Shown here piece by piece: positions 33,701 to 59,900 of a stretch of 64,000 nt of DNA. The position numbers and the translations under genes are program-made. The DNA comes from Lingula anatina (taxonomy: Eukaryota; Animalia; Brachiopoda), in contig CM120646.1 in NCBI GenBank assembly GCA_051362555.1, positions 4,774,001-4,838,000 of the forward strand, in the 5' to 3' direction. The notes below the pieces were generated by a model, which saw only the letters and a list, made by a program, of their open reading frames with translations, made no database searches and was not told the DNA's origin. Positions within the stretch are counted from its first letter, which is position 1. Each line of letters begins with the position of its first letter.

Positions 33701-33844
33701 GACATCTATCATTATGGTCCCGATGTATACGGCAACAGCGTGCAGTTCCAGAAAAATCAAGAGCAAGGATTTGATAGTATGGAGAAAACGAGTGGCGTGA
33801 ACGAAATGGCTAGTTATCAAATCGGAAATGCATTCAACAGATGA
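18755..33844 (+). CDS. RFX4: RFX4 winged-helix transcription factor (18 predicted coding exons)
   Basis: Exons 18755-18854, 25062-25151, 25414-25474, 25974-26097, 26831-26892, 27326-27403, 27683-27716, 27999-28097, 28610-28851, 29068-29168, 29460-29663, 30076-30170, 30507-30624, 31300-31419, 31904-32555, 32716-32878, 33220-33386 and 33547-33844 splice in phase. DNA-binding domain [36 protein letters not shown]...[32 protein letters not shown]; RFX4-type [15 protein letters not shown] and [26 protein letters not shown]. The first two exons are less certain. Confidence 0.93.
25776..25921. mobile_element. 146-bp palindromic PIF/Harbinger-type MITE in an RFX4 intron
   Basis: ~60-bp near-perfect TIRs starting GGCTCCGTATCTCGAAAGGTTCGCTATGTTGCGCACGTGCG, with CTG on both sides as a 3-bp target duplication. 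Confidence 0.85.
26167..26606 (-). mobile_element. 5'-truncated Penelope-like retroelement with inverted pseudo-LTRs
   Basis: ~160-bp inverted arms (26167-26329 / 26446-26606). The spacer translates on the minus strand as [38 protein letters not shown], resembling the Penelope GIY-YIG C-terminus. Each arm carries CTGATGA-AGGCC...GGCC-GTAA. Confidence 0.85.
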
Positions 33845-34747
33845 TGGCTTGGTTGCAGCCACCTGAAATGGCGCAAATGCTTAAAATTGTAAAGTCTAAT
33901 TTTGTATGTCAAAAGATAACGAGCTGATTTTAGATGAATTATGAGACTTTAATTGTTATATAATTGTATTACGTGATAATGTTACTGGTACATTGGGACT
34001 ATAGAATTATTTTTGTTCATAATAACCAAGGGCAGGTCTACATTGGCAAGGCAATTATGTGTAACCATATGTGTTCAGTAATTCTTCAGTATTTCAAGAA
34101 ATGAATTGGAAAATATTGTTAAATAATATAGAATATATGTAACAACGTGGTTAACGGCAGCTATATCATGTATCTTTTTTACTTTACCGATACATCATCA
34201 TGCATATTATGCTTTTATATATATTTTCTGTATTATTATACTATTTTTTTTTCTTATTTAATGTATAACCTAATTACAAGTGTCGGTTTCATTCCCCCTG
34301 TTTTTGTACCAATATAACTGACTGAATATGATATACAGGGTACAAATTAATCTCGTAAGAGGTTATGTTTTTTAGAGTAACATTTGTTTGTTGTTAAATT
34401 GAATTTGTCAAAGTACAACACTATGTGTTGGCATAACAGTCCAGTATTTAATATATTTGTGGGTATACATTATAGTGTTTGGGATATTGTACTTCGTTTC
34501 CTCTATATTCCTCCTGTGATAAAGCCAAAGCTGATACCAAAAGATACTTAGACGGCAAAAGTAAAGGTGTATCCAACACCATTCCAAATGTTCATTAAAT
34601 ATTTTCATTAAGTAACCAAAACATATTATATTCGTTGTTAAAACTTCACACATGTATCCTGTTGATTTACTGTTAAATAAAGATATGATAATATTGAACA
34701 CATAAAATTATTCCTTCGACCTTGCGATGTTGTATCATCGATGTTCG

Positions 34748-37900: not shown

Positions 37901-40900
37901 ACCCAAAACTCCTTATTTACTGCCTTACATACATTCTTTTCGGTGATAAATAAATTTTCAGTGTTTTAGTGATTACATTAATTAACATTTACACATGTCA
38001 TCTTACGGGTGATGGTATAATTGCAGTTTGGGGGTAAAAACTGAAAAATCGGATTCTCAAATGTCTGTTTTACCTGAACACCCGTGATCACTATTTCAAA
38101 GCCAATTTAATGACACCATTTAGTACCCAAAAACCCTGCCAGCGATTTTTTAAAGCCTTAGTTCAGATTTGATCGTTGATAAAGCAAAATAATACCTTTG
38201 TTTTTAGAAGATCGGTCATTACGGACTCATGACTCCATAACAAAAGCATTTAAACCATAACGTTGGCATGGGATTGTAACTCATGCCTTTGTGGTCCATT
38301 GGCCATTCCTTGTGACAAAATCTTGTTCAGGGATGAAGTTAAGCCCCATATGCATTGCTAACTAATCTCAAAAATGAAAGCTGTTAAATAGATGATTAAA
38401 GCTTTGAGTTGCTTATGCTTATACATTGCAACGAAAAAATATAAACGCCGTTATTTCATATTTTCAAGAGTTTTTTCATTGTTTCAAAGCAGCACAAAGA
38501 CAGATACATTATTGAATAATAAGATGCAGGAAAAAACTTATTTTCAGTATCTGGATGGTAATAAAGAGTAACAATATCCTTAATGCTCTGCTACTGAGTG
38601 TTCTACTGTAAATATTCCCATATGTAACTAACATTATGCTATTCTATATGTCAAAACTTTTCAGTTTCATGTGATCCTTGAACAACACTGGCCATATTTG
38701 TTGTATTATTGTTTTTCCTAATTTAAAAGCCACAGTTGTATATAAACATTTGTATTTATGTACACAGAAATGGTGATTTTGGGGTGATTTTTACCTCAAA
38801 ATGACAAAAAATCCTCTTTTTAACCCAAAATGAAGTGACCCAACCAAAATGATGTATCTATTTATGCTCATTGATCATGAAATCATATGGTTAGACATAT
38901 AAAAAGCCATGTTTGAACTGATATTTAAAGATTTACATGAGAAATATGTGATTTGAGGGAGCGTTTGGTTGCCATTTTGAAAAATCACCTGATACCAATA
39001 TCAGATGTAATTTAAAATGAAAATACTTATTAGATTTGTATTCAGCAGCCAAAATGGCCATAGAATCCACTTGTCTGAAATTAAATTTCTCAAAAAAGCC
39101 TTCATTTGCCCACCCCTAATATTATAACTTACCAATTTTGTGGTAGTTCTTCTTTATATACCAGTAGAAGAAGGCGACCAGTGCAATCAGGGCCAGCACG
39201 GTGCCTATACTGCCCAAAACCACCACCACTGTCCACCTCTGTCCTGAAATAAAGGCAATTTTATCCAGAAACATAATTTTGATTTTGTCCTACCCTCTTG
39301 ACACACATAAGACCATACCGAAAATTAGTACAAAATGGACAAATGAACGGTAATATTTTTTGCATTATTTTGTGTTTGTTCAAATTCTCATTCAGACAAG
39401 TTTTTTCATCTAGATATGGCAAACACATTCGGAAACCTTGACAATAAGTGGGCAACTGCGGGCTACCACTTCTGCAATAATTATGACTGATAATAACTTG
39501 TTCTATACCAAAAAAAAAAAAAAAAAAACATGCCCTATGACAATAATATAGCGATTTAGTTTGTTTCCAAAGGACATGCGTTGCAAATATAAAACCCAGA
39601 ATAATAACCATGACAGATGAATGGGAAATATATGGGACGAATTCCTGCACCAGTCATACAACAAACCGTGTGCTAAAACCCTTACTAACCTCTTTTTTGT
39701 GCCTCCTCGCACGACACCTCCTCGTTATTGTATGGACACACTGGAAACAACAATTACCATTTTAACGCTATGAATCCGTTTATACACTGTCAATGCTTTA
39801 TATCACAATTATAAATCAGTATTGCAGGGTTAAGTAAAAAAAATAAGCTCCAGGTGTTATTTAAAAAGTATTTATTGACTTGTCCGAGAAAATGATTAGC
39901 CTTCTATGGTTTGCAGACACTTTACAGACGGTCATAAATGTACGTAGTTAAGTATACCTTCGTTGTAAACAATATGGAACCCTTGCCCAGTTGAGTTTTT
40001 ACTGACGAATAACATAGCTACCCTGTTTGCCTTGGCGTGAAAGTCACTTGGAGGGGAGGCTGGAAAATAATATCGTCTACGACTTTTTTAAATTCGACAC
40101 TTGAATAAAGAGTCGAACAAGTATACTGACAGGGACTTCGATGGAATAACTTCCGGTATACATTATTTTTTATACAAAGAAAAACAACAAATGTGATTAT
40201 TTTTTTAAATAAACATATTTTAGTTATTTACTGTAAGTTCTTTTATGTAAGAATCCGTATGTTTTTATCTAAAATACTCTTAAATTTTTTGTCGTAAAGC
40301 TCTTAAATTTTTCATTTATCTATTCCTAGTAATTGATTTCTTAAGTAATTGTACATGTTTCATGTATATGTAAAGTCTTCTGAACATGTTATAAAGTATT
40401 TTAGACTCAAAATAAATTTATTATTATTATTATGAAATTATTCACGTATGCATACATGAATGAATAAAGCATTGAATACGTGTAAAAGAGACTGAATCGG
40501 TTTTACAAGAAGAGCCGCACGGTAACAGATACACATTTTGTTATCATTTTTAGGTTGTAAATAATTTGCGTAATTATGATTTATACAGTCGACAGTATTA
40601 ATAATGACTTTGTTAAACATTCCGGGCGATGGAAAAAAAGAAACTACTTGGATATGGACGTATTACCTGATGAGTAAACAACTTCATCCTGCTCAGTGCT
40701 CGCCATAAAAAGAAGAGATCCATTGCCTAAGTTAAAAGCCTTGAAATATATATAAATCAATTCTTTTACACTTTGCACCTCAAAGGATTTTTAAGCTTGA
40801 ATGAAACAATGAAATATATAATATGAACACTGGACAACCAGATTAAAATATATAACATTTTGATTAATTTAAAGATAGTTCAATTCAAGTTTCTCTATTG

Positions 40901-42301
40901 ATAGTTATACAGCTCCCATAAAGGTGAAAATTTTATCTTCATGTATCACTATATATTTGCTTGCAAAAACGGAAAGTATTCTGAAATTTGGTGAGAGAGA
41001 GAGAGAGAGAGAGAGTATGTGTGTGTGTGTATGTGTGTGTGTGTGCGCGCGCGCGCGCGAGTGCAAGTTTGTGTTTGTGTGGGGGTGGAGGCACAGATAT
41101 AGAAAGAGAGGGGGGAGAGAGAGTGTGTGTAAGAGAATGTTAGTGCTCTATTTTAGGCTTACCTTGAACTTTACTGTAATCTTTCCATTGTCATATTTTG
41201 TGTGTATAGCATAGTTCAAAGCCATGTTAGCGGGGTAATTCGCCGGCCATGCTGGAGAGAAGATGGAACCCTCAGCAGCCGTCAGGATCGTAGTACCTAA
41301 ACAGGGATTTTTCACTTTATTCCAACAACTCGAGAAACAGTGATATTAAAATTTACATGCCAGTGTTCAACATTCCAGGTCGGTTATTTCAGTATATCTA
41401 ATATAATAACTGCAACGATTTCACTACGCTTAAAACGATAAACAATAAATATATATACTTAAAAAGTTTTGAAATTAAAAAAAAAATATCAAAAGACAAT
41501 AGCTGCCATTTTTGATATGGCAAATTTTGAAACAAACTGCAATATTTTTTACTCCAATCATTATTGTGGCAATATTTTCTTCAGGTTGAACATTAGCACC
41601 AAGAACTTAATATAAATGTTACAGTTATTATATGATACCTTCCATTTCCTCGGATGTTTTTGTTGTAAAATTGGCAAATGATGAATTACGTCTTTCCTTC
41701 AGAGACCTTGTAAGATCGATCTGTAAGATATAAAGTACTGTGCCCATATTATAATTACGATACCGAGACATAGATCATTTGTCGAGTAATACAGTATACC
41801 ATTGGGAAAACACTTGCTCACAAAACAATCTGCTTCTTTCGACTGTTTTTATTTATTTATTTATTTATTTATTTGCAAAGGAGCAAAAGCAAGCAAAGGT
41901 GGTAAAAATACATTTGTCTGGTAGATATCTTACCCACCCTCAAAGCTGGTTTATCCATGAGTTCCATTGTGGAGACACCAATGGGGATGGAAGAATCGTC
42001 TTTGTAATCACCAAGCACGTAACCTCGTCCGTCTCTTATCTGAAGCAGAATACAATCTATTTTCGCCCCATATGTCTAGATCTATCCTTGCGACTACGGC
42101 AATATTAACAGATTTTAAAATCGCCATAAGCATGAAAATATTCAAATTAACAATACGACTAATTAAAATGTTATTTATTTTTCGTTTGAAGCAATGAAGA
42201 GATAACACAAAATCCACAGAGGGTATACAACCAGTAATAATATAATGGATATTCTAGAATTTGTATACGTGCGTTGTATAAAATATATGAAAAGGGTCAT
42301 T

Positions 42302-42365
<64 letters not shown>

Positions 42366-43341
42366 TGTTAAAATAAAGTTGTACAGTACACAGAAGGTGT
42401 AAAGGCGTGCACCGTAGCCCCAAAACTGACTAAATTGACAACACTGGTCACGTGGTCTCTAATAAGTACATTTCCGGATCTAGGTGCCCGGGGGAGGGGG
42501 GGGAGTGAGGGTACCTGCAGTTTGGTGATATCAGCGGGGACTGTCCTAAACATAAGTACCATCCCCCGGACAGTTTCGTTGTTGGTGGAACACTCTAGGA
42601 AAAAAGTGCACGAGGTTTCTGAAAAAAAAACTAAAATATTAAATGTTAAGAAAATTAGGCCATAGGAGAACCAGTTACACTATGAGGCAGTAAATAAATA
42701 TTTAAAACGGGTTCTATTAACACCTTTCAGCCATACTATATATATATTATAATTGTCAAGGTGAAATGTTTTTAACACACGTTAAGTTAATTGAACCACT
42801 TCTTGTTAAAATAAATCCATCAGTTCGGTAAGTTTTTAAGAACGAAAAGATGCGTTAGGGGAGGGGGCATTAACAACAGTTTTCGACCACTATCGACACA
42901 AACGACACTTAGTGAAGACTGAATAGATTACCATTTAGACCTTTTTGGTGAGTACCTGAAATCGTGGATTTCCACTGTGTAAATGGGAGGGTGGGTACAT
43001 TGTAAAGTCACTACAGGAATATTCAATAGCTTACAGAGATTTAAATGTATCTTCTGGTTGTGTTGGAGCATCCCCTCCTTACACTTTTTATCCAACTCTG
43101 TTATAAATACAGGAGGCGGACACGACTTACAGGAATGTTCCTGCTAACTTCGCTTGTGATTTTATATTAATATTTACCCCCTAACCCACCCACTCAAAGT
43201 TATCCTACCGGACCTTCTATCTCATACATACCATTGGAGGGAATAGTGATGTTACCAGCGTCATAGAACGTCTCATTACATATGGCTGAGGCGGGAATAC
43301 TGGCTGAAAACACAATATACATGTACTGTGATATATACCTG

Positions 43342-43375
<34 letters not shown>

Positions 43376-43504
43376 TGCTGGATCAAGGATAATGACATCA
43401 TGAAAAATTCTGTAAATAGTAGAACGGATTAAAACTGGGTACTTACTTTTAAGTAAGACAAGCGTCATGCATACGCAATATACCGTTCCTTTAAACCCCG
43501 CCAT
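34958..43504 (-). CDS. CUB-domain type I membrane protein, paralogue A (11 exons)
   Basis: Signal-peptide exon MAGFKGTVYCVCMTLVLL; CUB motifs AEGSIFSPAWPANYPAN, ITVKFKAFNL and GQGFHIVY; TM exon ~39131-39243 (VVVVLGSIGTVLALIALVAFFYWYI); last exon GYQDFSDPRHGMIN*. The exons splice in phase and no stops were seen. Confidence 0.8.
35056..36442 (-). mobile_element. Tc1-family DNA transposon with a defective transposase, in the last intron of paralogue A
   Basis: TIRs CACACACTGGACAA(T/A)AGAAGTGTCACCCC with TA flanks. The transposase (~36260-35229) has FSDE, MVWGC, QDENAPCH, SPDVNIIENVW and LPRRL..II.SRGYATKY, plus frameshifts and a stop. Confidence 0.93.
36539..39118. mobile_element. Non-autonomous TIR DNA transposon (hAT-like ends)
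   Basis: TIR TAGGGGTGGGCAAATGA plus a subterminal inverted block (GTGGATTCTATGGCCATTTT..GCTGCTGAA). ATATTAT is duplicated on the flanks, and the empty site is visible in paralogue B near 44485. No transposase ORF. Confidence 0.8.
37164..37866. mobile_element. Nested MITE (Harbinger-like ends)
   Basis: Ends GCCCCCTGTCACACT / AGTGTGACTAGGT; the interior is rich in GAAT/ATTC units, unlike the flanks. Confidence 0.6.
42306..42362. repeat. (TA)n microsatellite; others include (GA)n at ~48827-48867 and (TAA)n at ~8878, ~15434 and ~45200
   Basis: Read directly from the sequence. Confidence 0.95.
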
Positions 43505-44170
43505 ATTGCTGACACAAGATAAAACTAACAAGAGGGGTAGGCAAGGACGAATTCAAGGATCTTATCTGTTACTGTCGTTGATTTAGGGCATGCCAGGTAG
43601 AAATCAGGGTTCATTGATAAACGCAGTTTATTATTACCCATTGAGCGATTATTAACCATAAGTTAAGCAGATGTTAAGCAGGACTTACTAGGACATGCCG
43701 TCTAACGTGTGTTCACTTCGACTTAAGTGTAAATACCATTAACTAAATAAAAACGGCTCAAAGCTACGTCCATCAAAACGGACTGGGCATAAAATAAAAG
43801 AATGATGAATAAGTAATAAGTAAATTAGAAAGGCACTGGGATACGCCTGTCAAGGCAGCTAAATATCATTATTATAAATCGGTTAATTAAGTAATGAATG
43901 GTTCGCCTTAGATCGCCTAATGTCGTTTTTTAATAGGTAAACTCCCGGCCGACAGCTTTGGAAGTATTATACAGGGCCCTGCCCGGGAACTGCGTTTTAC
44001 TTTCATACAGTGGTAGAGCGTGCAAGTGAACATCCCAACCCCCACTGGTATATGTACTGATTATTGATGAAGGTATTGAATTTTTAACTTTATTATGTGT
44101 TAGTAGGTAACAAGAGCACGCATAAAAGTCTCTGAAAGTCTCTGTTCCTGTGGTTGCAGTATAAATTGCT

Positions 44171-45199
44171 CTAATTAACCAGGCCATGCCTTGGGTCAGA
44201 GAAGTCCTGGTAACCTGGAATTGAATATGATAATTAGTTAAAGCGCACATATATATCACTTTTTTCCATTCTTATTTTAAATACTTGTGCCAAAAGTTGG
44301 TTTGATACAATTGTACAGATGAGCAATTAAATATGACTGTGGCGAAGATCACGCAGTAACAAAATCATTCAGATATCATCATGTGTTTCTACAACGGAAT
44401 GCAAATGCCCTAAGTTCTGGCGTGTATGTATAGACCCTTTTAAGTTCAATTTGTAAAACCGCCAGTCACGCCGTGTGCGATGTTGTACTATAACTTACCA
44501 ATTTTGTGGTAGTTCTTCTTTATATACCAGTAGAAGAAGGCGACCAGTGCAATCAGGGCCAGCACGGTGCCTATACTGCCCAGAACCACCACCACTGCCC
44601 GCCTCTGTCCTGAAATAAAAAGAAGATAGGCGCAATTAAACGATATGGCAACACATATCTCTAGAGTCTATTTAAGTCTTATTGAATAGTTTATATATAT
44701 TTAAATCACTAAGACCATGGCAGTTAGTATAGATAATAATTTGTTACCATGCCACGCACATAACAATAAAAAGCGACCCGTGTTGCCCGTTTTCTTGGTA
44801 TGAATGGGACTGTGAATGCTTGTAGTAATTTCGGATGGAGGAGACATTAAGACACTATTTCAATTGATATATGCACTTACTGAAATTCTCATGTTTTCAT
44901 TTAGATATGGCAAATGTATAGGGGAAGATTGACAATTCGTGGGCATCTACCGGTGCGGACTTTTCAGCATGGAGTGACTTGCGAAATGCTAGACTAGTCT
45001 CCAAGCAACTATGGCAGATAAATGGTCGGTGGCTGAAATATATGGGATGAATTCCTGCACCAGTCATACAACAAACCGTGTTCTAAAACCCTTACTAACC
45101 TCTTCTGTCCGCCTCCTCGCACGACACCTCCTCGTTATTGTATGGGCACACTGGAGACAAAAAAAATAAATAAATAAAAACAACAACAACAACAACAAC

Positions 45200-45236
<37 letters not shown>

Positions 45237-48118
45237 TAAGCGATATTTTTCAAAGTTATCAATTTACCGTCGATGTTTTATGTTTTATATATTATTTCGT
45301 ATGGGGTTAAGTTAAAAAAACCAAACGCCCAGTGTGTTATTTATGTAGTATCCATCGACTTACGCGAGAAAACGAATTTCTGGCCCCGATTTGCAATGAT
45401 TTTACATGAACCATATGCGGTACATCGTACCTTCGTTGTAATCAAGATGGAATCCTTGACCCGTTTGGTTTCCACTGAAGAAAGTCACAGCTACCTTGTT
45501 TGACTTGGCGTGGTAGTCACTTGGAAGAGAAACTGGAAAACAGTGTTGTGTAAGCGTTTTTAAATCCGACACTTGAATATCTGGTAAAGGGTCAAATAAG
45601 TATATTGACAGGGGCTCCGATGGAATTACTAACGGTCTGCGATTTTTGTTCACAGAAAAAAAAACGGAATCAAACGTAGAACACATCAGTGAATGAGTGC
45701 AGAAGCAGTGAATGAGTGTAAAGGAAAATGTATCAGTACATGTATATAGAAAGGGCCGCACAATTTTAGATATGCATTTTAATGTGAAAAATAAATTGCC
45801 TATTTACACGTTTTTTAAGTCTGCGATTACCTATTCAGGTATTTCGTATATGATAAAATAGCTACGAAACGGAGGACTTATTACCTGATAATTCACCACT
45901 AGAGTAAGTAACGGAGTCCTGGTCACTACTTCCCATTAGAAATATAGATCCTCTGGACAAGTTAAAAGTCTAAAGAAATCAAATAGTTATTGCTTTTACC
46001 ATAAGGGGTCATCTTCTTTCATCATCATTTTCACAAGTGTACAAACCGTACGCCGAGGGAGGGGGTTAAATCTCTCTGTAAGCTTTTGAAAAATAACAAA
46101 AATTATATTCCAAATTGCTATCAAATGTAATATATATTTTTTCTTTTCATCCTGTACCCTCTAAAGGGAGTTCAGGAAAAAGTCTCCCCGTTGTAGACTT
46201 AGGAAAATGATGAAAAAAAGATTACCCCTTAACACTTCAAGAGGTACTTATGATAAAATGACTCTGTTAAAATTTACGATACGAACACTGGACTTCCAGA
46301 CATAGAATAAATGACACAAACCAGTTGCAAAGGGAAAATTTCAGCCAGTATTCCCGCCTCAGCTACAGCTACTATAAAATGAAAGTGATATGTTGCGCTG
46401 TCTGTTTGCTTACAAAAGCAAAAAGTCATATGAAATCTGGTATGTGTGTGTTTGTGTATGTGAGAGAGAGAGAGAGAGAGAGAGAGAATGTATGTGCTGC
46501 ATCATAAGGCATACCTTGAACTTCACTATAATTTTCCCATTGTCATACTTAGTGCGTATGTTATAGAACACCGTGATGTTAGCGGGATAATTCGCCGGCC
46601 AGGCTGGGGAGAAGATGGAGCCCTCAGCAGCCGTCAAGTGCGTAGGACCTAAGCAGGGATATTTCATTTAATTCCACAATTTACGAAACAGTTAAATTGA
46701 ATTTCACGTGCCTTCATTCAACTCTCGAAAACTGTTATATCAATATATCTAATAGTAAAAGCAATTGCAAAGGTTTCACGGCGCTTACAAACATAATTAA
46801 TAATATTTCTAAACTAAGCACCTGTATTAGAAGTATTGGACGAAATAGAAAGAAAATGACTCTTCTTCAGTGCGGTGAATTTTAAAGCATACTACAATGT
46901 CTTGAATTCAATCACCCTTTTTTTTTATTACATTCTTTCAGCCTGAAAACTGAACATACAAGTATTGGTAAAACCTGGCATAAACACCTTGAAACTAATA
47001 TAAAAGTTACAGTTATTATATAACACCTTATACCTTCCATTTCCGATAATGTTTTTGTTGTAAAAGTGGCAAATGATGATTTACTGCTTTGTTTCAGAGA
47101 CTTTGTCAGATCGATCTATAAATAATAAAAAGTGAGAAAATCAAGCTTAGGGTGTGTGTGCATATTATAATAGTCGATGTCAACGCATAGACCATATGTC
47201 GAACACTAAAATGTCATCAAACAAACGGTCACTCACAGAAGAAAGTTTCAACTGATTTTCATTTAAATTTTGGTGGAGTTAAAACAAACAGAGCTGACAA
47301 GCAACATACAACTATTTTTCTTGCAAATGTCTTACTCACCCTCAAAGCGGGTTTATCTGTGACATCCAGTGTGGAGACACCAATGGGGAGGGAAGAATTG
47401 TCTTTGTAATCGCTGAGCACATGACCTCGTCTGTCTCTTATCTGTAGCGAAAAGCAAGCTGGCGTACTAACACCTCTGTTTCTGCATCACCAAAATGTAA
47501 TATACCGGGTATTCTTCATACAATACCGATAATGCAACATGCTGGCTATTTTTCCCATATTTCCCACATTTCTATTCTTTTGATTTCTTCAGTATTGACA
47601 GATTTCAAAATTATCACACGCATCAAAATATTAAGTAATTTAATTGTAATTAACGGGAACGCTGCCAGAAATGATATCGTACTTCGACTGAATCAACGCA
47701 AAGATTGCACAAAGGGTACAAAAAGTAATCACCCCAGACGCCTCCAGAAATGTGCACGTGCCCATTAAAGACTTCACACACACACGCACACACACACACA
47801 CGCACACACGCACATATATATATATGGTCAGTATTTTCCACATCGTCCCATCAGGAATAATAGACACGGGGCGCATTTTTTAACATCAGAGAACAGTTTT
47901 AACAAAAAGAAAATACACGTGTTGAAACAACACCCTGGTTTTGTTGTAACCGACCGGGGTGCAACAAGTCGCTGTTCTTTTTCTAAATTTTTTCCTTGTA
48001 TGTACCTGTGCAAATTTACTATTGAACTTATTTCTGAGGTCGTTATGCATAAAAGAATAGTTAGAAAGTTGTGCCCAACATTCTGACTTACGTATCGGGG
48101 CTTTAAACTATATGTATG

Positions 48119-48161
<43 letters not shown>

Positions 48162-48820
48162 TTATTTTATTTTTTTTTTTTTTTTTGGGGGGGGGTTACC
48201 TGTAGTGTGGTGATATCAGCGGGAACTGTCCCAAACATCAGTACCATCCCAGGGTCAGTTTGGTTGGTGGAACACTCCAAGAAGAAAGTGCACGACGTCT
48301 CTGGAAAACAATTCAATATAAGAAATGTTAAGAAAATAAGAACTAGAGGAACACCTGCTGTTACTATGCAGGCCCATAATAAATGTGTATTCAAAGCAAG
48401 TTCTATTTACACTTTTCAGGAATACTTGCTTCATAGTCCTCAGCTTAATATGTTTGTAAAAGTGACGTAGTGAAATTTTTGAATCACACTTAGAAGTACA
48501 AAACACTTAAAATAAGTTCATCAGTTTGGCAAATTGATTAGAACGTAAAGATGCATTACAGGGGAGGGCTAGGAGGAATTTCTCTTATAACATCGCGCGT
48601 GATTCTATATGAATGCACCCGCCCCCACTCACACACATGTATACATGTAGCTCATACGTACTGATTGTATACTATGCCTGTCTCGTACATACCATTAGAG
48701 GGAATAGTGATGTTACCAGCGTCATAGAATGTTTCATTACATATGGCTGAGGCAGGAACACTGGCTGAAACATAATATACATGTATTGTGATATATACCT
48801 GTATTTGCATATATATTAAG

Positions 48821-48869
<49 letters not shown>

Positions 48870-49004
48870 TTGGATCAAGAATAAAGTAGTATTTACATCA
48901 CGAGAGACTTTGTAAATAGTAAAACGAAATCAAAGGGGGTACTTACATTTAAGTAAGACAAGCGCTATGCAATATACATGTACCGTTCCCTTTAACCCCG
49001 CCAT
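44171..49004 (-). CDS. CUB-domain type I membrane protein, paralogue B (11 exons)
   Basis: Same exon structure as paralogue A. Segments include MAGLKGTVHVYCIALVLL, AEGSIFSPAWPANYPANITVFYNI, NKVAVTFFSGNQTGQGFHLDY, VCPYNNEEVSCEEADRRGQRR, the TM helix, and the tail KKNYHKIGYQDFSDPRHGLVN*. Confidence 0.82.
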
Positions 49005-49429
49005 ATTGCAGTCAACAGATAAAACTAACAAGAGGGGTAGGCAAGGACAAAGTCATACATCTTATCTGGTACTGTCGTTGATTTGGGGCATGTCAGGCAG
49101 AAATCAGGGTTTGTTGATAAACGCAGTTTATTATTACCTATTGAGAGATCATTTACCTTAAGTTAAGCAGGAGATATATGCGACGTACTACATGCCTTGA
49201 GTATACTTCGGATTATAAGTATAAATAGCCATTAATAAATAAAAGAGGTCCAGGTTCATTACTCCGCATTATGGTTGGTTGCATTTAAAACAAAGTGAAA
49301 AGCTTTCTGAAGCCGAGCGTACACGATCTTATCTACATGTACGTAGAATGATTTCAAGGCAAGCGCCCTAAGAAAAAGACAGACGGACAGAAGACGGATG
49401 TCAGACGGAAATGTTCCTCCCCATCTTAA

Positions 49430-50390
49430 TACTAAATCTCTGTCTGAATCAGCAACTAGAGCACTGGGTTTGATAATAGCAAAAGCAAAAAAGGTTGGTC
49501 AAATTAAATGGGATTCTCCACATACCAAAAATTGTTTAACAGTTGTGTAACTCCAATTTTAGAATACGGGTCAGGGGTTTGGAGATTTCCAGAAAGTGAA
49601 ACCTGTGAAAAAGCTATGTTCAATGCGTTAAGATACTATTTAGGAGTACACCTATTTACACCCAAAATTAGTCTGTATGGTGACTCAGGTTGGATACCTC
49701 TAAAATTTAATAGGTGGTTGAACATACTTAGACTTTGGAACATTTTAATACTTGCCCAAAATGATAGACTTGTGAAACAGATTTTTAAGAGGATTATAAA
49801 TTGGGGAAAAAACTGGTGCTCCGAGGTAAGAGAGATACTCAAATTCTGTAATATCGAAAGCCATTTTTCGAACAAACAAATTGTGGATATAGAATACATT
49901 AAAAAACTCTTTTATGAAAAATTTTAAATTAAATGGAAAAAAGACATTTTGAAATTTCCCAAACTTCGAACATATATGACATTTAAAAAAAGAATTGAAA
50001 ACTGAAAAATATTTACACCTAGATTTAAATAGAAAAGAAAAATCAATTTTTACTCAATTTCGGATGGGCATTTTGCCTCTGCATGTGGAAACTGGACGGT
50101 ATACAAATGCACCTTTAAATGAAAGAATATGCCAAGTAAAAAGACTTAGAAGATGAGAGTCATGTCTTACTTCGGTGCACTGCTTACAAAGAGGAAAGAT
50201 ATAACTGTTTTTTAAAGTTGGCGATCCAAAAAAATGATACCTCTATAGAAGATTTAATGGAAAAAGATTTGAGGCAGCTAGTAAAATTTGTAGGTAAGAT
50301 TTTTGATAAAATACAGGAACAATTGTACTCAACAGGTGTCTTATAAACCCGAAGGGCTAGGTGTTCAAAACACAAGACACGTAAATAAAT
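49430..50390 (+). mobile_element. 5'-truncated non-LTR retrotransposon (post-RT region, frameshifted)
   Basis: KLFNSCVTPILEYGSGVW, LYGDSGW, PKLRTY, QFRMGILPLHVETGRY...ERIC, and an AATAAA-rich end near 50385. Confidence 0.8.
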
Positions 50391-51150
50391 AACCCAGACC
50401 GCCAGGATTGGCGAGTCATGGAAATACTCTGAAACCCATTTAGAGCGACAGACTGTGTAATCTACTATCAATAGAATCACTGTTTGAATGCATTCTATCT
50501 AATCACACCGATAGGCCGCGGATTTAAGATAGGAAAGTTCGCGTGAATTTCAGGGCTCACTACAAACTGGTCAGTTGAAACTGTCGGAGAGTTGTAGCAC
50601 CCCAATGCAAAGCTGAGAGGAAAATACCTAGGGAGAATCTGATCATAAGTACACGTAAGTGTGAGATGGTTATTTTTTCCACAAAAGGGGGGCATTTCGA
50701 CCAAGTCTGGGCAATTCGTTATGGGCTACTGATAAGAGCATTTTATGGCCCGTTATTTTCAAAATGGTACCATCTCAAATTATAACCCTCATTAATATTA
50801 TCTGCAGAGTTCTGCTGTAGGTGCTGCGTTCTTCGTTTAAGTAAGAAGGTGTGAGTGTATGAACACCCGACCCCCATCGACTATCGAAGGAAGTATAGGG
50901 CCTACTTTCTTCTTTGTTACGTGTTAGTCAATCAGAAGTCTCTTGCTTTTCTTTCAGTCTGCGTCTAAAGCAGTACCAAAGACAGTAAAAATAACCCACG
51001 TGCATGCAAAGGGTCTTGATGGATATTACTGTTGCTGAAGGCAACGTTAAGATAAAAACCTTAAACTTTAAATCAAGGTAGAGATAAGCCTACTTTCAAA
51101 GCGTCTTCTAGCAGTATACGTCAAATGTCTTTCCAGGCAACATAGAACAT

Positions 51151-54100
51151 ATGGCTGACTTAACCCACGCAACGGAAAAAAGATTGGACCGAGGCTTCTC
51201 TGCAGAGGAGACTGCCATCCAGTTTCCACCGGACTGCGATCAAGAAGTTGTAGGCCCCGAGTTAAGCTGGACGCAGTATGCATCACAGTTCGTCATAAAT
51301 CAGGAAACTGGTGGAAAAGATTTTTTCAATGCCGCAATTCTGCCATTTTCAACGCCATCCACCATTGAAAATGCAGAGAAATTTTGGAGGTCTGTAATTT
51401 TTGACTGGGTCCGCTATATTCCTTTCCTTCGGATGATCGTAAGACCAAAAGTGGCCGGGCAAGAAAGCTGCGCTGAAGACTTCGTGCATGTTTTTCTGCC
51501 AGCTGACTGGGAAAATATAGACTTCCGAGTCATTGAAGATAAAGAACGATTCGAGACGGAGACTGAGGACCCGATGGATCTCAGAAAAGGCCCCCCTCTG
51601 CGAGTGCTACTCTGGGCAACTGGCCCCGACCGAGAGATTCGGCTCGTCATCAATGAAATCAATAGCGACAACGCGGGACTAGCGGTTCTCACCGACGCAT
51701 TTGGCAAAATCACCATGTTGAAACTGGGGAAGAAGATATCTGCACCAATCCCTCCAGTCAAAATGTGCGACTTTCCGAAAATTCTGAAGGACGCAGTCGC
51801 GGCCCGGGAGAGCAGTGACGCAGCGTTTTGGAAGAGCGTGGTGGAGTCCATGCCAAAAGATGGAGTGAAGTTGTCCATCTCTGCCCACTGTCCAGCCTCT
51901 GGACAATATTCCGGTCGAATTAGAAATGTCAGTAGGCAAATGACAGAGAAGCAGGTCAGCGGTATGGTGAAAATGACGGAAGATTATAATTCTACGTGCT
52001 TCAGGGTAAGGGTCCTTAATTTTTTCTAAGGTTAACACTGTCATAGGAATGTGCCCTCAAACTGCTCCAAAATTAATATTTTTTCTTCAATTGATTTGAA
52101 ACGATATCATTCTCTTGCGTAGGCAACACTTTTGTTTTACACACCTTTTACAAGAATTTGATATTTTCCTTAAAGATAATTACTAGCGTCTACCAGCTCC
52201 TGCTCCACTTGTACACAGGGGAGAGTGTTAACATCACCACCAATGTTGACGTCACTCGTTTCGTCCCCGAACTGAAAGGCGTTCTTACTAAACTTATCAA
52301 CGGAATATCCCTCTACGCTGACTTCAAAGAAACAGGCGGAGCCACGATCAAATATTTCTTGCAGAAGAACTCGTCAGTAATACAGCAATCTGTGGAACAC
52401 GGCTTGTACCCGGCGGACCGGATTCAGGCTCTCGTCGAGGCGCACATGACCGAAATTACACGGAAATACCCGAAGCACAAAATCAACCAAGAGCGAGTGG
52501 GGTTTTGGTCTTTCCGCAAGCAATTCGTCCAGAAGCAGGGGACAAATTTCCAATTCAAAGGTGAATTCAGAATTCAGTATTCGAAAAATGTAGTAAATTA
52601 AAATCCAAGTGGCATATCTTTTAATTTAAAATATTTTAAATTTTTCTTTGTGAAGACATATTCTTATATGGTCATTTTCCCTATTTATAATAGCTATATA
52701 CATGTAGGTCATGTGTGATCCATCCCCAGAAATGCACTGCATGACGTCACGCTTAGCCCACTGCGCATGCGTGCACTTTTAATGAGTTGCTAGATTGCCA
52801 TAGGAAAATGAATGGGTTCGCGATTCGTGGGTAATTCGTGATAATTGACAAACTAACGGCCTGACGCCGATAGACAGCAACGCTGTGCTATGCTTCAAGC
52901 AACTCCTGACCAAATATCGCTAGGCTTTTTAAAAATATTCTGTTGTACACACGTACTAAGAAGTTTGCCGTGTATTGCCTAGCCTACCCTCAGCAAAACG
53001 CACATATTTTCAGAAATAGTGATTTTAGACGGTAGATTCACTCAGAAACAAAGGCAAACTAATTCGTTGCCGATAGTACCAGCAGATAGCAGCACCATAC
53101 AGAGTCTGATTAAAAACTTTCGTGGCAATTGAAGAACTTTTACCACTGTACAATGGAGTCCAAAAAAAGCACTTGGCACAAATGTGAAACTGCCCAGTGC
53201 AAGGCCAAGAATTCAATCAGTTTTTTCAATCATATTATCAGATTCTACATAAATTGACTGACAATATCACTACTCAGTATTTAACTAATCTCTTAATCCA
53301 AAATTCCTATCATCATTTAATAATAATGCAAAATTCTTCTTTCAGATTGCTATTTATTTTAAATTTTAATGCTGCAACTGTTCCAAAATAATCTTGTAGT
53401 AAAGGAAAAATGCAAATAAGAAGTGGAAGACCAATTTTACCCCCATTATTCAATTATTTGAATATAAAAAGAATAAGATCACGATTTAACAAATTAAAAT
53501 AATCTTTCATGAACTATTTCATGAATAACATATTAAACAAAATTAAAGTTATAAATTAGTGGTAATGGCTTATTCTGGAATATATGACCTCTGCACAACA
53601 TCAGTACCTGACTTGGTACAGTATAGTTACTACTTGGATACAGAGTTAGATTTAATAATGTAACAATAAGAACAATATATATTACAATAAACTTCTCTGC
53701 ACATGTCAGACGCTTGTTACCATGAACTAACACTACTTGACAATGGGCTGAGCACTTATCACAGAGTCTGCGTGCGATGCCATTGTTGTGCTAGTTGTGC
53801 TGATTGGCTAGTTGAGTCACGTGAAGCCCTACTGTAGCGCCCTCGCGTATCGCGTGAATGCTGCGCATTTCTGGCCATGCGATGTATATCCAGATATATA
53901 ACTGAAGATAATTTATTAGAATTGATAAGATATTCGTAATATTTTAGCTAGATTTGTATCCAACAGATGCAAATTCTGCCGTTATTTCTAATTGCATGTG
54001 TTATTTAAATTTTGTTTTTCACACTGGACAAAGTTCTTTAAATACTCTGATGATTAAAAGAAGGATTGCCTCTCAATTTCAGGTTTAATTCTGAATACTC

Positions 54101-54333
54101 TAGAAACCATTATCGAGACGCAAATTCGATTCTACTACGACAAACGCAACCCCAACAACAGTTTCATCGTTTTCGAATTAAGCCAAGACGCCTTCAGCGA
54201 GGAAGAGGCTCACCAGATCAAAGAAGATTTCTTCAATCTCTTAGATTACGTGATTGATAATCCTGATGGGATAATTGCAGATATTCCTTGGGACGACATG
54301 GCACAGTATCGTAGTTCATGCAACACCAAGTGA
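51151..54333 (+). CDS. Stand-alone NRPS condensation-domain-like protein (CoA-dependent acyltransferase fold), 496 aa, 3 coding exons
   Basis: Exons 51151-52005, 52176-52560 and 54083-54333 give a 1491-nt open frame. C-domain hallmarks occur in order: LSWTQ (cf. LSxAQ), PFLRM (cf. PxLRT), PMDLRKGPPLRV (cf. PFDLxxGPLxR), INEINSDNAG (cf. xHHIxxDGxS), AFWK, YQLLLHLYTG, HGLYP, FSEEEA...LLDYVIDNPD. Confidence 0.8.
52694..53900. mobile_element. Putative non-autonomous DNA element in intron 2 of the condensation-domain gene
   Basis: Degenerate inverted ends ATATACAT...CCAGAAATGCACTGCAT / ATGCTGCGCATTTCTGG...ATGTATAT. GC-richer termini surround an AT-rich core. Confidence 0.4.
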
Positions 54334-56242
54334 AAAAAATGTTTAAATATCAGCAACGAGTATCTTCTTCTCTATTTTCTCCAAAATATCCGACCGCTTA
54401 ATCATATAAAATGGATGCACCAAAGGTATCGACAGAAACGGCTTTACAATCGAGTTCAACATATTAATTTTCATACATATGCAATTAGTGAAATTTTGTG
54501 AAAGGGGGAAATTAGCAAGTCATAATGACAATAGACAGAAACCACATGTAATTTTGAAGTAAAATGTTTGTTAAAACCATTTCAATGTTTCTCAAACAAT
54601 AAGAAAAAAGTCCGTCTTGCTGAGACGACAGTTGCTACTAATTTGACAATTTTATCAGATAATAATAATAATTATTGAATAAACTTTCTTAAATCAGGAA
54701 AAAAAAAACCAACCCCAATGAAAAAAGTGGTCGTTTTATTATTATTATTATTATTTATTTATTTTATTATTATTATTTTTTTTTTTTTGAAATTTAGCAA
54801 GATTTTATTCAAATATGGATGATAATTGAAATATTTTTAGGGAAATGTTGTATAAATATCATTATATATATGGAAAAATTACTGGGGACCTGTAGATTGT
54901 AATTCACAACGATGAAGACACAATTTCGGATAATTTATCTTTGACAACAAATTTTATTGTTCGATAACTGTTCATTTCCTCGAGGCCAACATCTATATCC
55001 AAGGTGACAACTGATACTGATATCCCTACAATTAACTCATTTGCTACTCAGCCATTACTAAACCAATATAAACATCGCTTCTGTGCTTTGAGAAGGAGTC
55101 AGAATAGTGAATCCCTTTTTTACCACATTGATACAAAGGCCTTGGACTATCCTTTTTGTTAACTGGTAACAGATAAAGCAATTACAAATGTAACTGTCCC
55201 TTGGATCAATCCAATTTCTCAACTATAAACACCAACGAACACATATAATGCAAAACCTATAGGAATAATAAATTTTACTTCCCAGAGAAACAGCGACTTG
55301 ACGATATAAATCTCTAAATATTTAAGACAACAACAACATATACTGTTTACAATAAACAGCTACACTAAATGTATTTATAACATATTAAAATGATCAACTT
55401 CTTTTTACATGGTACGTCACTATTAAAAGTTGGAGTGCTCTGCACTTAAGAAAAATTAGCTTTAAATACAAATCTAGCTATGTAATATCTATTTCTTGTC
55501 AGTGAAAATCTCGAGCATTCTTTCATGCAATCTACTGTCATTAATGCACAACAACGAACAAACATTTTTTTCTTATATTTTTTAACACGATCTAGACTAG
55601 TCTATTTGTTCTGTATATTTAGACAAAAGTCAATCGGATTGAATACAGTACAAGAATTAGGCACCTGCGCCCGTTTTACATTACGTCTACATACTAATAC
55701 ATCTGAATGAAAACATAAGTAGCCAGGTAAAGGTGACAAATGTACAGCCAACTATCTCAGTTTATATATTAAGGAAAAAATAAACTATACCTTGCAGAAC
55801 TGGGCCTGTAACTAAGCAAAATTTTCAGTGAAGGAAAAAACAAACAAACAAAAAAACAAAAAACAAACACGAAATGGGAATTCTTATTGGCCTTTTGTAA
55901 ATTGGTCAGCCAAAGTTAACGAATCCATCAAGTGACAACCATAGAGAGTACAACATGGGTAGTTTTTTTTAATATCTTGTTCATGGTTCTACAAGATGTT
56001 GAATTCAGGATTTTGGTGATGAGAATAACTTTGAAAACCACCCACAGTTCAACCGACACCCTGTAGGTATCCAGTCCGAAGATGTTCCAAGCAAAACATT
56101 GGTTTCATAAAAAATTCGTTCTGACACATAAGTGATTATCATCATCATCATCATCATCATCATAAAAACCTTTCCTTAATATGGATATTGTACTGTAAAG
56201 CCACTGGGTGTTCCACACCAACAGTTTATGAAGTTGATATTT

Positions 56243-56986: not shown

Positions 56987-59900
56987 TATCCAGACCATTG
57001 TTCACTTACAGGTTGTGAGGCAGGTGGCTGGTAAGTACTGGTGGTGGCCTGTGTTCTCACAGGATAGCCAGTCATTATACTCCCCTATGGAAACAAAAAA
57101 AGATACACCTCAACTTTGTGTATGTTCAAGCAAATGAATACTTGATAGATTAAAGTTAATATTATCACAATAATACAACTATACACCTAATTTTTAATAT
57201 TTCAGTATATAATCACACACATAAAATGATGATTTTTTCTAACTGGTGAAATATCTTAAGTTTCCTCCACAAATATCAGATATACGGCAAGTCTAAGGGT
57301 TACTTGAAAAATTGTTTCACAAAGAGTTAAAAGTTAGGACAGTCACAATATATTCAGTCCCATCCATATTAGGAGTACTCACCCTGGGTGGGGGTTGCTG
57401 AGGGGGGAGCTGCATCTGCTGCTGGATGACACCAGTACCCCTCATGGAGGACTAGAGGGGGAAAATAATGTTTTAATATAATAATAATTAATAATATAAA
57501 TAAACAAAATCTCTCACTGTATGACTCTGACTGAATAGAAATAACTTTCTAGAAGACATGAACATCTGGGTTGACACTCAAACAGCAATTTTAGCCACAT
57601 GGTAAACATATTCAAATTTATTTCATTGTTTAAAATCAATTCCATCACAAATGTAGTTCAAATTTCTGAATTGGATAAGCTAAGAGAACAGAGTTTTTTT
57701 GGTTAAGAACCAGATTTTATCCAGGACAAGCCCTGAGTAATACTGACCATCATCTTGTACTGATCCTTAGGAGATTTACTTCCCTCCACAGTGGGCTGTA
57801 ATTGACCTCGAGGTGACCCCAAGTGAGCTGCTGATGGACAACCAGAACAAAGTTTAATAATAATAATAATGATTTGTTAAGACTGCAATCCAGTAGGTTA
57901 AATATGTTCATAAAATGATAAGAACATTGCAAAAACAAGATGCTACATGTCTGAATGAAACTCAGTTAAAGGACTGGGTCTTTAGGAGCAAATCATTGGG
58001 AGAAAAAAAGTTATGCCACATAATAATAGTAATAGTATTAGTATGTCATCTTATAAGTTCTTGTTTACCTCAAACACATTTTTTGGAATGGGGTTCTTGT
58101 TTGGTGTTTGCTGGAGCTTTTAAAAGAACTAAGCCCGACTGGGACCTTTGTGTATTTCAAACACTTTTTTTCTAGTCATAAAAGTGTCTGATTTAGCAGA
58201 GGCTATATTGCTTTCAAGTCAGAACACAGAACACATAAAATTACTTGTACCCTACCTCCAATTCTAGGAATAGGATAGCTGGCATGCTGGGCTGGATATT
58301 CTCCAATCTTCTGCTGCTGATGCGCATAATGACTGGGATATGTACTGAAAGCTGATTGGCTGCCAGGATATTTGCCTGCTGGTGATTGGTTGGCCTGGAA
58401 CTTATTTGTCACCTGTGGTTGGCTGCTTGTGTAGTTGGATGCACCTTGGGTTGTTGAAGGAGGGGCAGGGAAACTGTGCCCTGATTGGCTGCTGTAGGCC
58501 ATGTGACCTTGAGGTGGATAACCTGCAGGCTCTGTTGGTGGGAAAAAAAATTCTGAAGCATATTAATCTTCTATAGACTACATTATAAATTAATTTGTAA
58601 TACAGAAAAATATATATTTTTTTTTTTGAGACAGAAATTTGTGATCCTAAAAATTTAGCCTTTAAAAACATTGTGGGTAGAAGAGGCCTGAACTGTATGC
58701 AACCCTGCAGACAATATACACATCAGAAAATATAGTAAAGTATATTGGGGAGAAAATAATATATAGAAGACTTTTGCCTTTCACCATCTGATTTTTCAAC
58801 GTATGCCCCAGAAGCCCAGTGCTCACTCTGATCTGTTGCCTGAGAGAGTCCCGATTTGGGAATAGCATTTCTTTTAACTAACAACAGGAAAATAATAATT
58901 AAAAAAAAAAAAAAAAAAAAAAAAAACTGACAGGCAAATACTCACTCTGCTCAGTAAACTGTGGGTGTTGTGGTTTAGGAGCAGCATAATTGGCCATGGC
59001 ATACTTCCTGGGGTCGGCAGTCACATAGGGACTGCTGGTATACATGGAGACTGGGGGAGGGGATGGACTCCTGGGCCTCTTCATACTCTGGAGGGAAAAA
59101 ACATACAACAGTGTTATAGTCTGGGCCTCTTCCAAATCTGGAGGGAGAAAATGTTATGACATTATTATATTCTAGGCCTTTTCATACTCTGGAGGGAGAA
59201 AGTATTAAAACTTGTTCTATCCTGGGCCTCCTCATACTCTGGAGGGAGAAAATGTATAATGTTGTTATATACTGGGCGTCTTCGTACTCTGGGGGGAAAC
59301 TGTTACGACATTGTTAAATTATGGGCCTCTTAATACTCTGGAGGGAAAAAATGAATAACTCTGTTAAAAGCTCACAAACAGTCATTGGGTGCATGATGTC
59401 TTAAATGGAATTCCTTAATATGGGATTTTATTATAGCTCCAGGAACTAATTGGCCCTGTTATAGTTGTCCGATGTCAAAGTGTTCAAATGTGAAATAAGT
59501 TCAGTACCGAACACTGCCTGCTGTGACAAATGAGGCTGTGTAAATAAAAGCCTCACTTAGTGTGACAAGAGAGTTAAAAAATATTTAGTTTCCTATATAT
59601 TTTTTTCTTTATATTTTACAAAAAAAAATCACTGAAATATTTTCTGGTCTTTAGGTGGTTGCCTAAAATGACAGGAAATTGTGAAATGTTCTGTATCAGT
59701 TACAATTTCAACAAAAAATTGTCCATCTTTGCTAACTGAACACATTCAAAACACACATAAAATGACAATTTAAACTGATTTACTGAATACTACATTTTCA
59801 TGAAAACATAACACGCATGACACGGCTTTTACCATCACCAAAACAACAGCTGATCTTGAAAGGTATTTAGTACCACATTACCCAAGACACTTTGTACCTA

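What the first reader, a model, noticed from the sequence alone, without database searches (positions are those of the whole stretch)
51151..54333. Intron-containing, free-standing NRPS condensation-domain gene in an animal genome
Seen: an intact 496-aa, three-exon gene carrying the ordered C-domain signatures from LSWTQ to LLDYVIDNPD. No adenylation, carrier or KS exons are recognisable nearby, and it sits between ordinary animal genes. The first coding exon is long (855 bp) and visibly more GC-rich than its surroundings. Known: C domains normally sit inside bacterial or fungal NRPS modules, and characterised animal examples (such as nematode PKS-1/NRPS-1) are few. Inference: this may be a domesticated trans-acting amide/ester-forming or product-release partner for an animal PKS/FAS, arising by horizontal transfer or by fission from an animal PKS-C gene. 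That would point to an undescribed animal secondary-metabolite pathway.
Basis: partly seen in the sequence, partly recalled or inferred. Interest (0 to 1): 0.85.

Follow-up and report, generated by a model that had tools for sequence, protein, structure and literature searches.

The report
Brachiopod's split-off polyketide condensation domain
A lamp-shell (brachiopod) gene encodes, on its own, a condensation domain that lacks the usual catalytic histidine; it likely split off from an animal polyketide synthase and, if it still works, would be a small handle on what these unexplained domains do in animals.

Summary
The gene is real: three GT-AG exons, 496 aa, equal but for one residue to Lingula anatina XP_013411351.1, between CUB genes and GPS2. 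It is a full condensation (C) domain (Pfam 48 bits; structural Z 32.6). Bacterial C domains are only about 20% identical, and exon GC equals that of host exons, so recent bacterial transfer is unsupported. By eye, the closest sequences seen are the terminal C domains of mollusc KS-AT-DH-KR-ACP-C polyketide synthases (PMC10764717 supplements), which share motifs absent from 734 bacterial domains and also lack the catalytic histidine. Best reading: a C domain split from an animal PKS, likely acting in trans, as the His-less fungal LovB-type domain can. No KS, AT, A or carrier exon lies in the window. Expression is faint (about 3 read pairs in 2 of 7 runs; first splice inferred from depth); the 5' end, second splice, partner PKS and activity are untested. 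New variant of a known kind; interest 0.5.

The parts
51127..51137 (+). Splice acceptor 13 nt before the ATG, in frame (phase 1); likely end of a 5' UTR intron
   Evidence: Sequence. No in-frame upstream coding exon longer than 46 codons among the donor candidates listed for 50350-51100; no RNA reads there.
51151..52005 (+). Coding exon 1, residues 1-285: 37-aa leader, N-lobe and start of C-lobe
   Evidence: Matches P0001; sense reads at its 3' end in runs X2 and X3.
51640..51672 (+). Active-site strand: R164 and NEINSDN (168-174) in place of HHxxxDG; Asp173 kept
   Evidence: Alignments; R164 found in 0 of 734 bacterial domains but seen by eye in both mollusc PKS C domains.
52006..52175 (+). 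Intron 1 (170 nt, phase 0)
   Evidence: GT..AG; depth arithmetic fits spliced reads in X2 and X3; not listed as a joint (needs 3 reads).
52176..52560 (+). Coding exon 2, residues 286-413; holds the block 327-364 (52299-52412) shared with mollusc PKS C domains
   Evidence: sense reads in X2, X3.
52561..54082 (+). Intron 2 (1522 nt, phase 1)
   Evidence: GT..AG and same junction as the public model; no read spans it.
52721..53879 (.). Repeat with 22-nt terminal inverted arms inside intron 2, likely a non-autonomous DNA transposon
   Evidence: Arms 82% complementary; reads with loose ends at 52720 and 53876-53883.
54083..54333 (+). Coding exon 3, residues 414-496 and stop: last strands and helices of the C-lobe
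   Evidence: Profile of bacterial C domains hits it at iE about 1e-8; Pfam E 0.048 alone; no sense reads on it in the 7 runs laid.
49250..50350 (+). Decayed repeat (LINE-like by recalled motifs) between the CUB gene and the C gene; boundaries approximate
   Evidence: Reads 90-95% alike from other copies in all 4 runs; no Pfam hit for two of its ORFs.

Best explanation
This is an intact three-exon Lingula gene for a lone condensation domain without the catalytic histidine, likely split off from the end of an animal iterative polyketide synthase (KS-AT-DH-KR-ACP-C) and predicted to work in trans on the carrier-bound chain of such a synthase. Shown: gene structure, C fold, loss of both histidines with the aspartate kept, absence of other synthase domains in the window, faint sense transcription. 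Inferred from by-eye comparison with two mollusc proteins: descent from the lophotrochozoan PKS-terminal C family, whose second-histidine position varies (Glu here, Cys and Lys in the molluscs) and so is probably not catalytic. Inferred by analogy with fungal LovB-type domains: the protein docks an acyl-ACP at its donor face, holds the chain in the cleft between the lobes and assists a late step (folding or cyclisation of the chain, or its release), rather than forming a peptide bond by histidine catalysis.
For: Fold and motif. Ancestry: residues 341-364 are 12 of 24 identical to the mollusc PKS C domain shown (bacterial mean 3.8, maximum 7 of 24 among 734); residues 327-364 are 15 of 38 identical to Siphonaria clade6-2 shown (bacterial mean 7.0, maximum 12); motifs FLP-x3-5-IDF, IQxxxxHGxxP, SxYQLL, KNSxxxxxSxExxLYP and WKxVV occur in 0 of 734 bacterial domains; both mollusc domains lack the second histidine and keep Asp and the Arg four places before the motif. 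Animal PKS-C genes exist in molluscs, lancelet and acorn worm. Trans action is feasible for a His-less PKS-terminal C: in ClaE the domain is essential, complements in trans, needs the Asp and not the Arg (PMC13492342 passages). Stand-alone status; in Siphonaria the carrier and C lie in one 6.8-kb exon and no such exon is in the window (longest ORF 305 codons). Long-kept reading frame across three exons at about 20% identity to bacterial relatives implies purifying selection (inference).
Against: The mollusc comparison is by eye, on two full sequences and part of a third, with blocks chosen after seeing the match; two blocks are not diagnostic (281-301: 10 of 21 versus 8 of 734 bacterial rows reaching 10 or more; 111-144: 12 of 34 versus bacterial maximum 11). 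No tree with animal sequences was built. No animal homolog came up in any search. No Lingula PKS partner was shown; no genome was held, and the cited supplements list only a Lingula FAS. Expression is very low: about 6 reads in 2 of 7 runs, none on exon 3 in sense or on the first 650 nt. The best structural matches are bacterial elongation C domains (Z 32.6), above the fungal MokA domain (Z 29.5), though the model was built on a bacterial alignment. The function of animal PKS C domains is itself unknown.
Confidence: 0.42

Rival explanations
1. Same origin, but the split domain no longer serves a PKS: it is a repurposed lipid-binding or scaffold protein, or a young relic of a partly deleted PKS-C gene that has not yet decayed.
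For: No catalytic His; very low RNA; no homolog in other species found; next to a tandem duplication and a repeat insertion; the window's Y345 replaces an Asp shared with one mollusc domain.
Against: All three exons are intact, the structural residues R94, D173, W227, R313, N327 and P364 are kept, and two introns lie inside a domain that has none in Siphonaria, which suggests a long history as a working gene.
Confidence: 0.25
2. A free-standing amide- or ester-forming acyltransferase of the VibH, OaaC or MxgH kind, using Glu169 or substrate positioning in place of histidine and acting on acyl-CoA or acyl-ACP plus a small acceptor.
For: Full C fold with VibH at Z 27.6 and RzmA starter C at Z 29.7; the His is not always essential, and ORF18 has HQxxxDM (PMC11546977 passages); C. 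elegans NRPS-1 C4 has an active-site Ser.
Against: Characterised free-standing enzymes keep the second His (over 99% of 127 FAA domains; essential in MxgH). The position is Glu, Cys and Lys in the three animal domains compared, unlike a conserved catalyst. No ligase, carrier or tailoring gene in the window.
Confidence: 0.16
3. The three exons are the 3' end of a longer PKS-C or NRPS gene whose upstream exons lie outside the window or are misassembled.
For: Strong in-frame acceptor at 51137; frame open from 51112; 5' end not covered by reads; the search for longer relatives covered only 869-2480 aa, short of the roughly 2,500-aa mollusc PKS-C.
Against: No synthase domain in 51 kb upstream; the intron would have to span the same-strand RFX gene and two CUB genes; the public model on a 447,671-nt contig starts at the same Met; the leader's likeness to the last carrier helix is not significant (shuffle p 0.39).
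Confidence: 0.11
4. An independent horizontal transfer of a bacterial LCL-type C domain into the brachiopod line, truncated at the C-A linker.
For: All database hits examined are bacterial or unnamed multimodular synthetases; it scores best on LCL-like profiles (70-83 bits versus DCL 25, E 9); the C-terminal tail faintly resembles the C-A linker (rank 14 of 483).
Against: Only 18-25% identity; longest branch of 116 rows (2.64) with no reliable sister; host-like GC; motifs shared with mollusc domains and absent from 734 bacterial ones. An ancient bacterial origin of the whole animal family is not excluded.
Confidence: 0.06

Closest known systems
Terminal C domains of mollusc PKSs, KS-AT-DH-KR-ACP-C (Lin et al. 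2024, PMC10764717; section 8 and parts of supplementary files 5 and 6 read)
   Same: Shared sequence motifs, no second histidine, Asp and upstream Arg kept, protein ends just after the domain (by eye).
   Different: There fused to the synthase and, in Siphonaria clade6-2, inside one intron-less 6.8-kb exon; here a separate gene with two introns. No function is given for them in what I read.
Fungal LovB/MokA/ClaE C-terminal condensation domain, HRxxxDG (PMC13492342, passages read)
   Same: PKS-terminal C without catalytic His; Asp kept; C fold (MokA 6ad3 Z 29.5, rmsd 2.9, 413 aligned); shown there to work when expressed separately.
   Different: Motif is NEINSDN; naturally fused in fungi; 13-14% identity; a shared role is analogy only.
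Free-standing bacterial C enzymes VibH, OaaC, MxgH (PMC11546977 and PMC13638107 passages; PMC13310621 abstract and section 8)
   Same: Single-domain protein with C fold (VibH Z 27.6, rmsd 3.4, 392 aligned).
   Different: They keep the second His and work with dedicated pathway partners; this gene lacks the His and has no such neighbours in the window.
Lancelet and acorn-worm PKS-ACP-(TE)-C-(A) gene models (PMC4604110 table passage) and nematode PKS-1/NRPS-1 (PMC8363725 passages)
   Same: Animal-encoded C domains tied to PKS assembly lines; nemamide genes are unclustered and use trans-acting enzymes.
   Different: All multidomain; sequences not compared here.

Membership tests
Condensation-domain superfamily (PF00668) | Profile match above the curated cut-off | tested here: met
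   48.1 bits versus 30.6, residues 132-480.
Condensation-domain superfamily (PF00668) | Two-lobed C fold over the whole domain | tested here: met
   TM 0.76-0.78; Foldseek E 1e-19; Z 32.6, rmsd 3.0, 423 aligned.
Canonical peptide-bond-forming C domains (LCL/DCL/starter) | HHxxxDG with catalytic second His | tested here: not met
   NEINSDN; His in 722 and Glu in 0 of 734 bacterial domains at that column.
Canonical peptide-bond-forming C domains (LCL/DCL/starter) | Embedded in a module with A and carrier domains | tested here: not met
   None in the 64-kb window; the 5' end of the transcript is not mapped.
Free-standing amide/ester-forming C enzymes (VibH, OaaC, MxgH) | Second His kept | tested here: not met
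Free-standing amide/ester-forming C enzymes (VibH, OaaC, MxgH) | Acyl transfer activity | not testable with these tools
   Needs an assay.
Lophotrochozoan PKS-terminal C domains | Sequence signature shared with mollusc PKS C domains and absent from bacterial ones | tested here: met
   By-eye counts 12 of 24 and 15 of 38 against bacterial maxima 7 and 12 among 734; five motifs in 0 of 734. Two other blocks were not diagnostic.
Lophotrochozoan PKS-terminal C domains | One clade in a tree | not testable with these tools
   No animal homolog was returned by any search; the tree holds bacterial rows and the query only.
Lophotrochozoan PKS-terminal C domains | Fused behind KS-AT-DH-KR-ACP | tested here: not met
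   No such exons in the window; this is the variant feature.
Fungal LovB-type C domains | HRxxxDG motif | tested here: not met
   NEINSDN; only the Asp agrees.
Fungal LovB-type C domains | Structurally closer to MokA/LovB C than to NRPS C | tested here: inconclusive
   MokA Z 29.5 versus LgrA 32.6, with a model built on bacterial rows.
Recent bacterium-to-animal transfers | Close bacterial relative or foreign base composition | tested here: not met
   18-25% identity; GC 41-49% like host exons; two introns.

The most novel reading that the evidence does not exclude
Lingula has turned the histidine-less terminal domain of an animal polyketide synthase into a separate, regulated gene that finishes or releases polyketides in trans: a natural split PKS/C system in an animal, and the founding free-standing member of a His-less C family across lophotrochozoan PKSs with its own, undescribed chemistry.
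Probability: 0.3. Interest if true: 0.75.

Novelty: new variant of a known kind. Interest (0 to 1): 0.5.

Why it matters
Lin et al. note that the off-loading mechanism is unknown for most TE-less animal FAS-like PKSs and give no role for the C domains on mollusc PKSs; the role of the His-less fungal LovB-type C domain is also unresolved. A natural 496-aa stand-alone version is far easier to express, crystallise and test against carrier-bound chains than a 2,500-aa synthase. Surveys that need A, T and C together or antiSMASH clusters would pass over it: a survey that included the Lingula genome lists 7 Phoronis loci and no Lingula locus. That the animal PKS C domains seen here all lack the catalytic histidine is itself a testable point that I did not find stated in the text I read.

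Tried and rejected
Single-sequence AlphaFold failed (pLDDT 32); repeated with an alignment. Homolog searches: exon 1 and whole protein at near lengths returned only the protein itself; longer proteins 869-2480 aa gave none at E 1, which is weak and misses PKS-sized proteins; the one exhaustive search used exon 1 only, leaving out the exon-2 block best shared with molluscs, so its lack of animal hits is not evidence of absence. Its hit P0116 is a flatworm pyrroline-5-carboxylate reductase, a chance match. The tblastn (125 of 125 hits inside the gene) did not test KS: the fetched set had no KS motif; covered afterwards by motif and Pfam scans. Carrier-helix remnant at the N-terminus: rejected (p 0.39). 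A GGH-containing ORF at 50579-50782 as a carrier relic: no profile or Pfam hit. Preference for N-terminal acyl-accepting bacterial C domains: not significant (p 0.18). FastTree placement: long branch, sister unreliable. PapA5 was not among the 50 structural rows shown; that does not exclude it. GC as a sign of transfer: rejected. Contamination: rejected (introns, animal neighbours, RNA reads). Supplement searches of two Lingula genome papers and a biomineral proteomics paper found no mention of the gene or PF00668. No complex was predicted, as no Lingula carrier sequence was at hand.

Full report
Observation. The three exons (51151-52005, 52176-52560, 54083-54333) have GT..AG borders and encode 496 aa, identical at 495 of 496 positions to P0001, which the protein collection names Lingula anatina LOC106174356, XP_013411351.1. 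Pfam Condensation scores 48.1 bits (cut-off 30.6) over residues 132-480. The ESM Atlas model matches C domains at TM 0.76-0.78 over 431-438 residues. An AlphaFold model on an alignment with 130 bacterial C domains reached pLDDT 76, pTM 0.79 and aligns to LgrA C at Z 32.6, rmsd 3.0, 423 residues, to the fungal MokA domain at Z 29.5 and to VibH at Z 27.6; the model leans on its bacterial alignment. The gene lies between two tandem CUB-type genes on the minus strand (duplicated blocks 39.1-43.75 kb and 44.5-49.24 kb; CUB hit) and GPS2 on the minus strand, with RFX further up. Contamination is excluded by introns, neighbours and reads.

The catalytic motif HHxxxDG reads NEINSDN. Among 734 bacterial C domains cut from the fetched proteins and loci, 722 have His and none Glu at the second position, and 733 keep the Asp that this protein also keeps. 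Of 143 columns at least 80% conserved in the bacterial alignment it keeps 42, mainly structural ones. The GC content of exon 1 (49.1%) is that of host exons (46.6-51.2% in 6 measured), so it is no sign of transfer; CpG observed/expected is 0.9-1.1 against 0.06 in a GPS2 exon, which by inference fits an unmethylated, narrowly expressed gene.

Is it free-standing? Profiles for A, T and AT domains and seven short PKS/NRPS motifs found nothing in six frames outside the gene; 0 of 72 plus-strand ORFs of 45 aa or more between 33.9 and 51.1 kb, and none of 33 further ORFs chosen from the rest of the window, matched a synthase family (105 ORFs given, not all 256 plus-strand ORFs). The longest ORF in the window is the gene's own first exon. 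The acceptor at 51137 is real and in frame, but the donor candidates listed upstream carry no in-frame stretch over 46 codons, and the leader's likeness to a carrier helix fails a shuffle test (p 0.39). A parent gene would need an intron across RFX on the same strand. A 5' UTR intron is the simpler reading. The database test is weak: the longer search covered 869-2480 aa only and no genome was held.

Expression. Seven of 9 listed runs were laid, 6 to 26 in 100 of each run read. Exons 1-2 have sense-side reads in 2 of 7: X2 about 4 reads, X3 about 2. No joint is listed, because 3 reads are needed, but the depths fit splicing: in X2 the bin 52112-52262 holds 177 bases against 174 expected for two reads spliced 52005 to 52176 and 302 for unspliced ones; in X3 one read stops within 3 bases of the donor. 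No read spans intron 2, none lies on exon 3 in sense, none upstream of 51810. Reads inside intron 2 belong to a repeat. Strand is read by comparison with GPS2, whose spliced reads lie on the other side.

Origin. Bacterial relatives are distant: 18-25% identity in the top 60 local matches, best on LCL-like profiles, and the longest branch of a 116-row tree with no reliable sister. Lin et al. 2024 (PMC10764717; passages, section 8, supplement searches, file 5 part 15 of 19 and file 6 part 25 of 32 read) report mollusc PKSs that end in a C domain, and a table in PMC4604110 lists lancelet and acorn-worm PKS-ACP-(TE)-C-(A) models. The two full mollusc C domains I could see were compared by eye. Residues 341-364 match the first at 12 of 24 (bacterial mean 3.8, maximum 7 of 734); residues 327-364 match Siphonaria clade6-2 at 15 of 38 (bacterial mean 7.0, maximum 12). 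Five motifs shared with one or other mollusc protein occur in 0 of 734 bacterial domains, and YQxLLHxxT in 2 of 734. Two blocks did not separate: 281-301 (10 of 21; 8 of 734 bacterial rows reach that) and 111-144 (12 of 34; bacterial maximum 11). The blocks were picked after seeing the match; the bacterial set, however, is enriched for best matches. Both mollusc domains also lack the second His (SCVVFD, HKAGFD), keep the Asp, and have Arg four places before the motif, as here (0 of 734 bacterial). In Siphonaria the carrier and C domains sit in one 6.8-kb exon, so the two Lingula introns are either later gains or were lost in the snail. I put descent from this family at about 0.8; no tree tests it.

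Mechanism. Because the second-His position is Glu, Cys or Lys in the three animal domains, it is probably not catalytic. The closest functional precedent is the fungal LovB-type domain: in ClaE it is essential, restores product when expressed separately, needs the Asp and tolerates loss of the Arg, and its role is unresolved (PMC13492342 passages). I therefore commit to a trans-acting helper of a Lingula PKS that binds acyl-ACP and assists a late folding, cyclisation or release step (0.42). Rivals: repurposed or relic copy (0.25); His-independent acyltransferase (0.16; free-standing enzymes keep the His, PMC13310621 section 8 and PMC13638107 passages, although exceptions exist, PMC11546977 passages); 3' end of a longer gene (0.11); independent bacterial transfer (0.06). 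No partner PKS, binding or activity was shown.

Prior description. Ten library searches listed no paper on this gene or on a free-standing animal PKS-type C domain; the library lacks most subscription papers. Suring et al. (PMC10531068; passages and supplement rows) screened the Lingula genome and list 7 Phoronis loci and none for Lingula. Supplement searches of PMC13121700, PMC4595640 and PMC13425148 found no mention. PMC11869996 and PMC12833800 (first fifth and passages), PMC8363725 and PMC11258130 (passages) give context on animal biosynthetic genes only. One scanned supplement of PMC10764717 (file 8) could not be read and most parts of files 5 and 6 were only searched. Earlier notes of this scan held no look-alike by sequence or place and none with all search words on this topic.

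Verdict. Observation confirmed; interpretation partly supported; a new variant (free-standing, His-less, intron-bearing) of a known but uncharacterised kind, the animal PKS-terminal C domain. Interest 0.5.

Noticed in passing
PMC10764717 supplementary files 5 and 6: Both full mollusc PKS-terminal C domains seen lack the catalytic second histidine and keep the aspartate; section 8 of the paper does not remark on it. The family may be His-less throughout.
   Followed up: partly
window 52721-53879: Repeat with 22-nt terminal inverted arms in intron 2; plus-strand reads at depth up to about 20 in run X5, mostly 90-99% alike with loose ends at both borders, so probably from other copies.
   Followed up: partly
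window 52353-52355: Codon 345 reads Tyr in the window and Asp in the public protein; one mollusc domain has Asp there. Allele or sequencing difference, not resolved.
   Followed up: no
window 39100-49250 (minus strand): Tandem duplication of a CUB-domain gene with a membrane-spanning-like exon; blocks 68-97% identical; almost no reads in the 4 runs.
   Followed up: partly
window 53600-55200: In run X4 reads from the GPS2 side extend antisense over exon 3 of the C gene, suggesting overlapping 3' ends.
   Followed up: no
window 59070-59366 (minus strand): A GPS2 intron holds several tandem copies of a splice acceptor plus exon start; reads joining 59088 to 59237 appear in X7.
   Followed up: no
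window 25800-33850: RFX-family transcription factor gene on the plus strand (Pfam RFX_DNA_binding and BCD_RFX).
   Followed up: no
window 4570-6090 and 35920-36225: Decayed reverse-transcriptase element (RVT_1) and a helix-turn-helix fragment that looks like a Tc1/mariner transposase piece (family name from recall).
   Followed up: no
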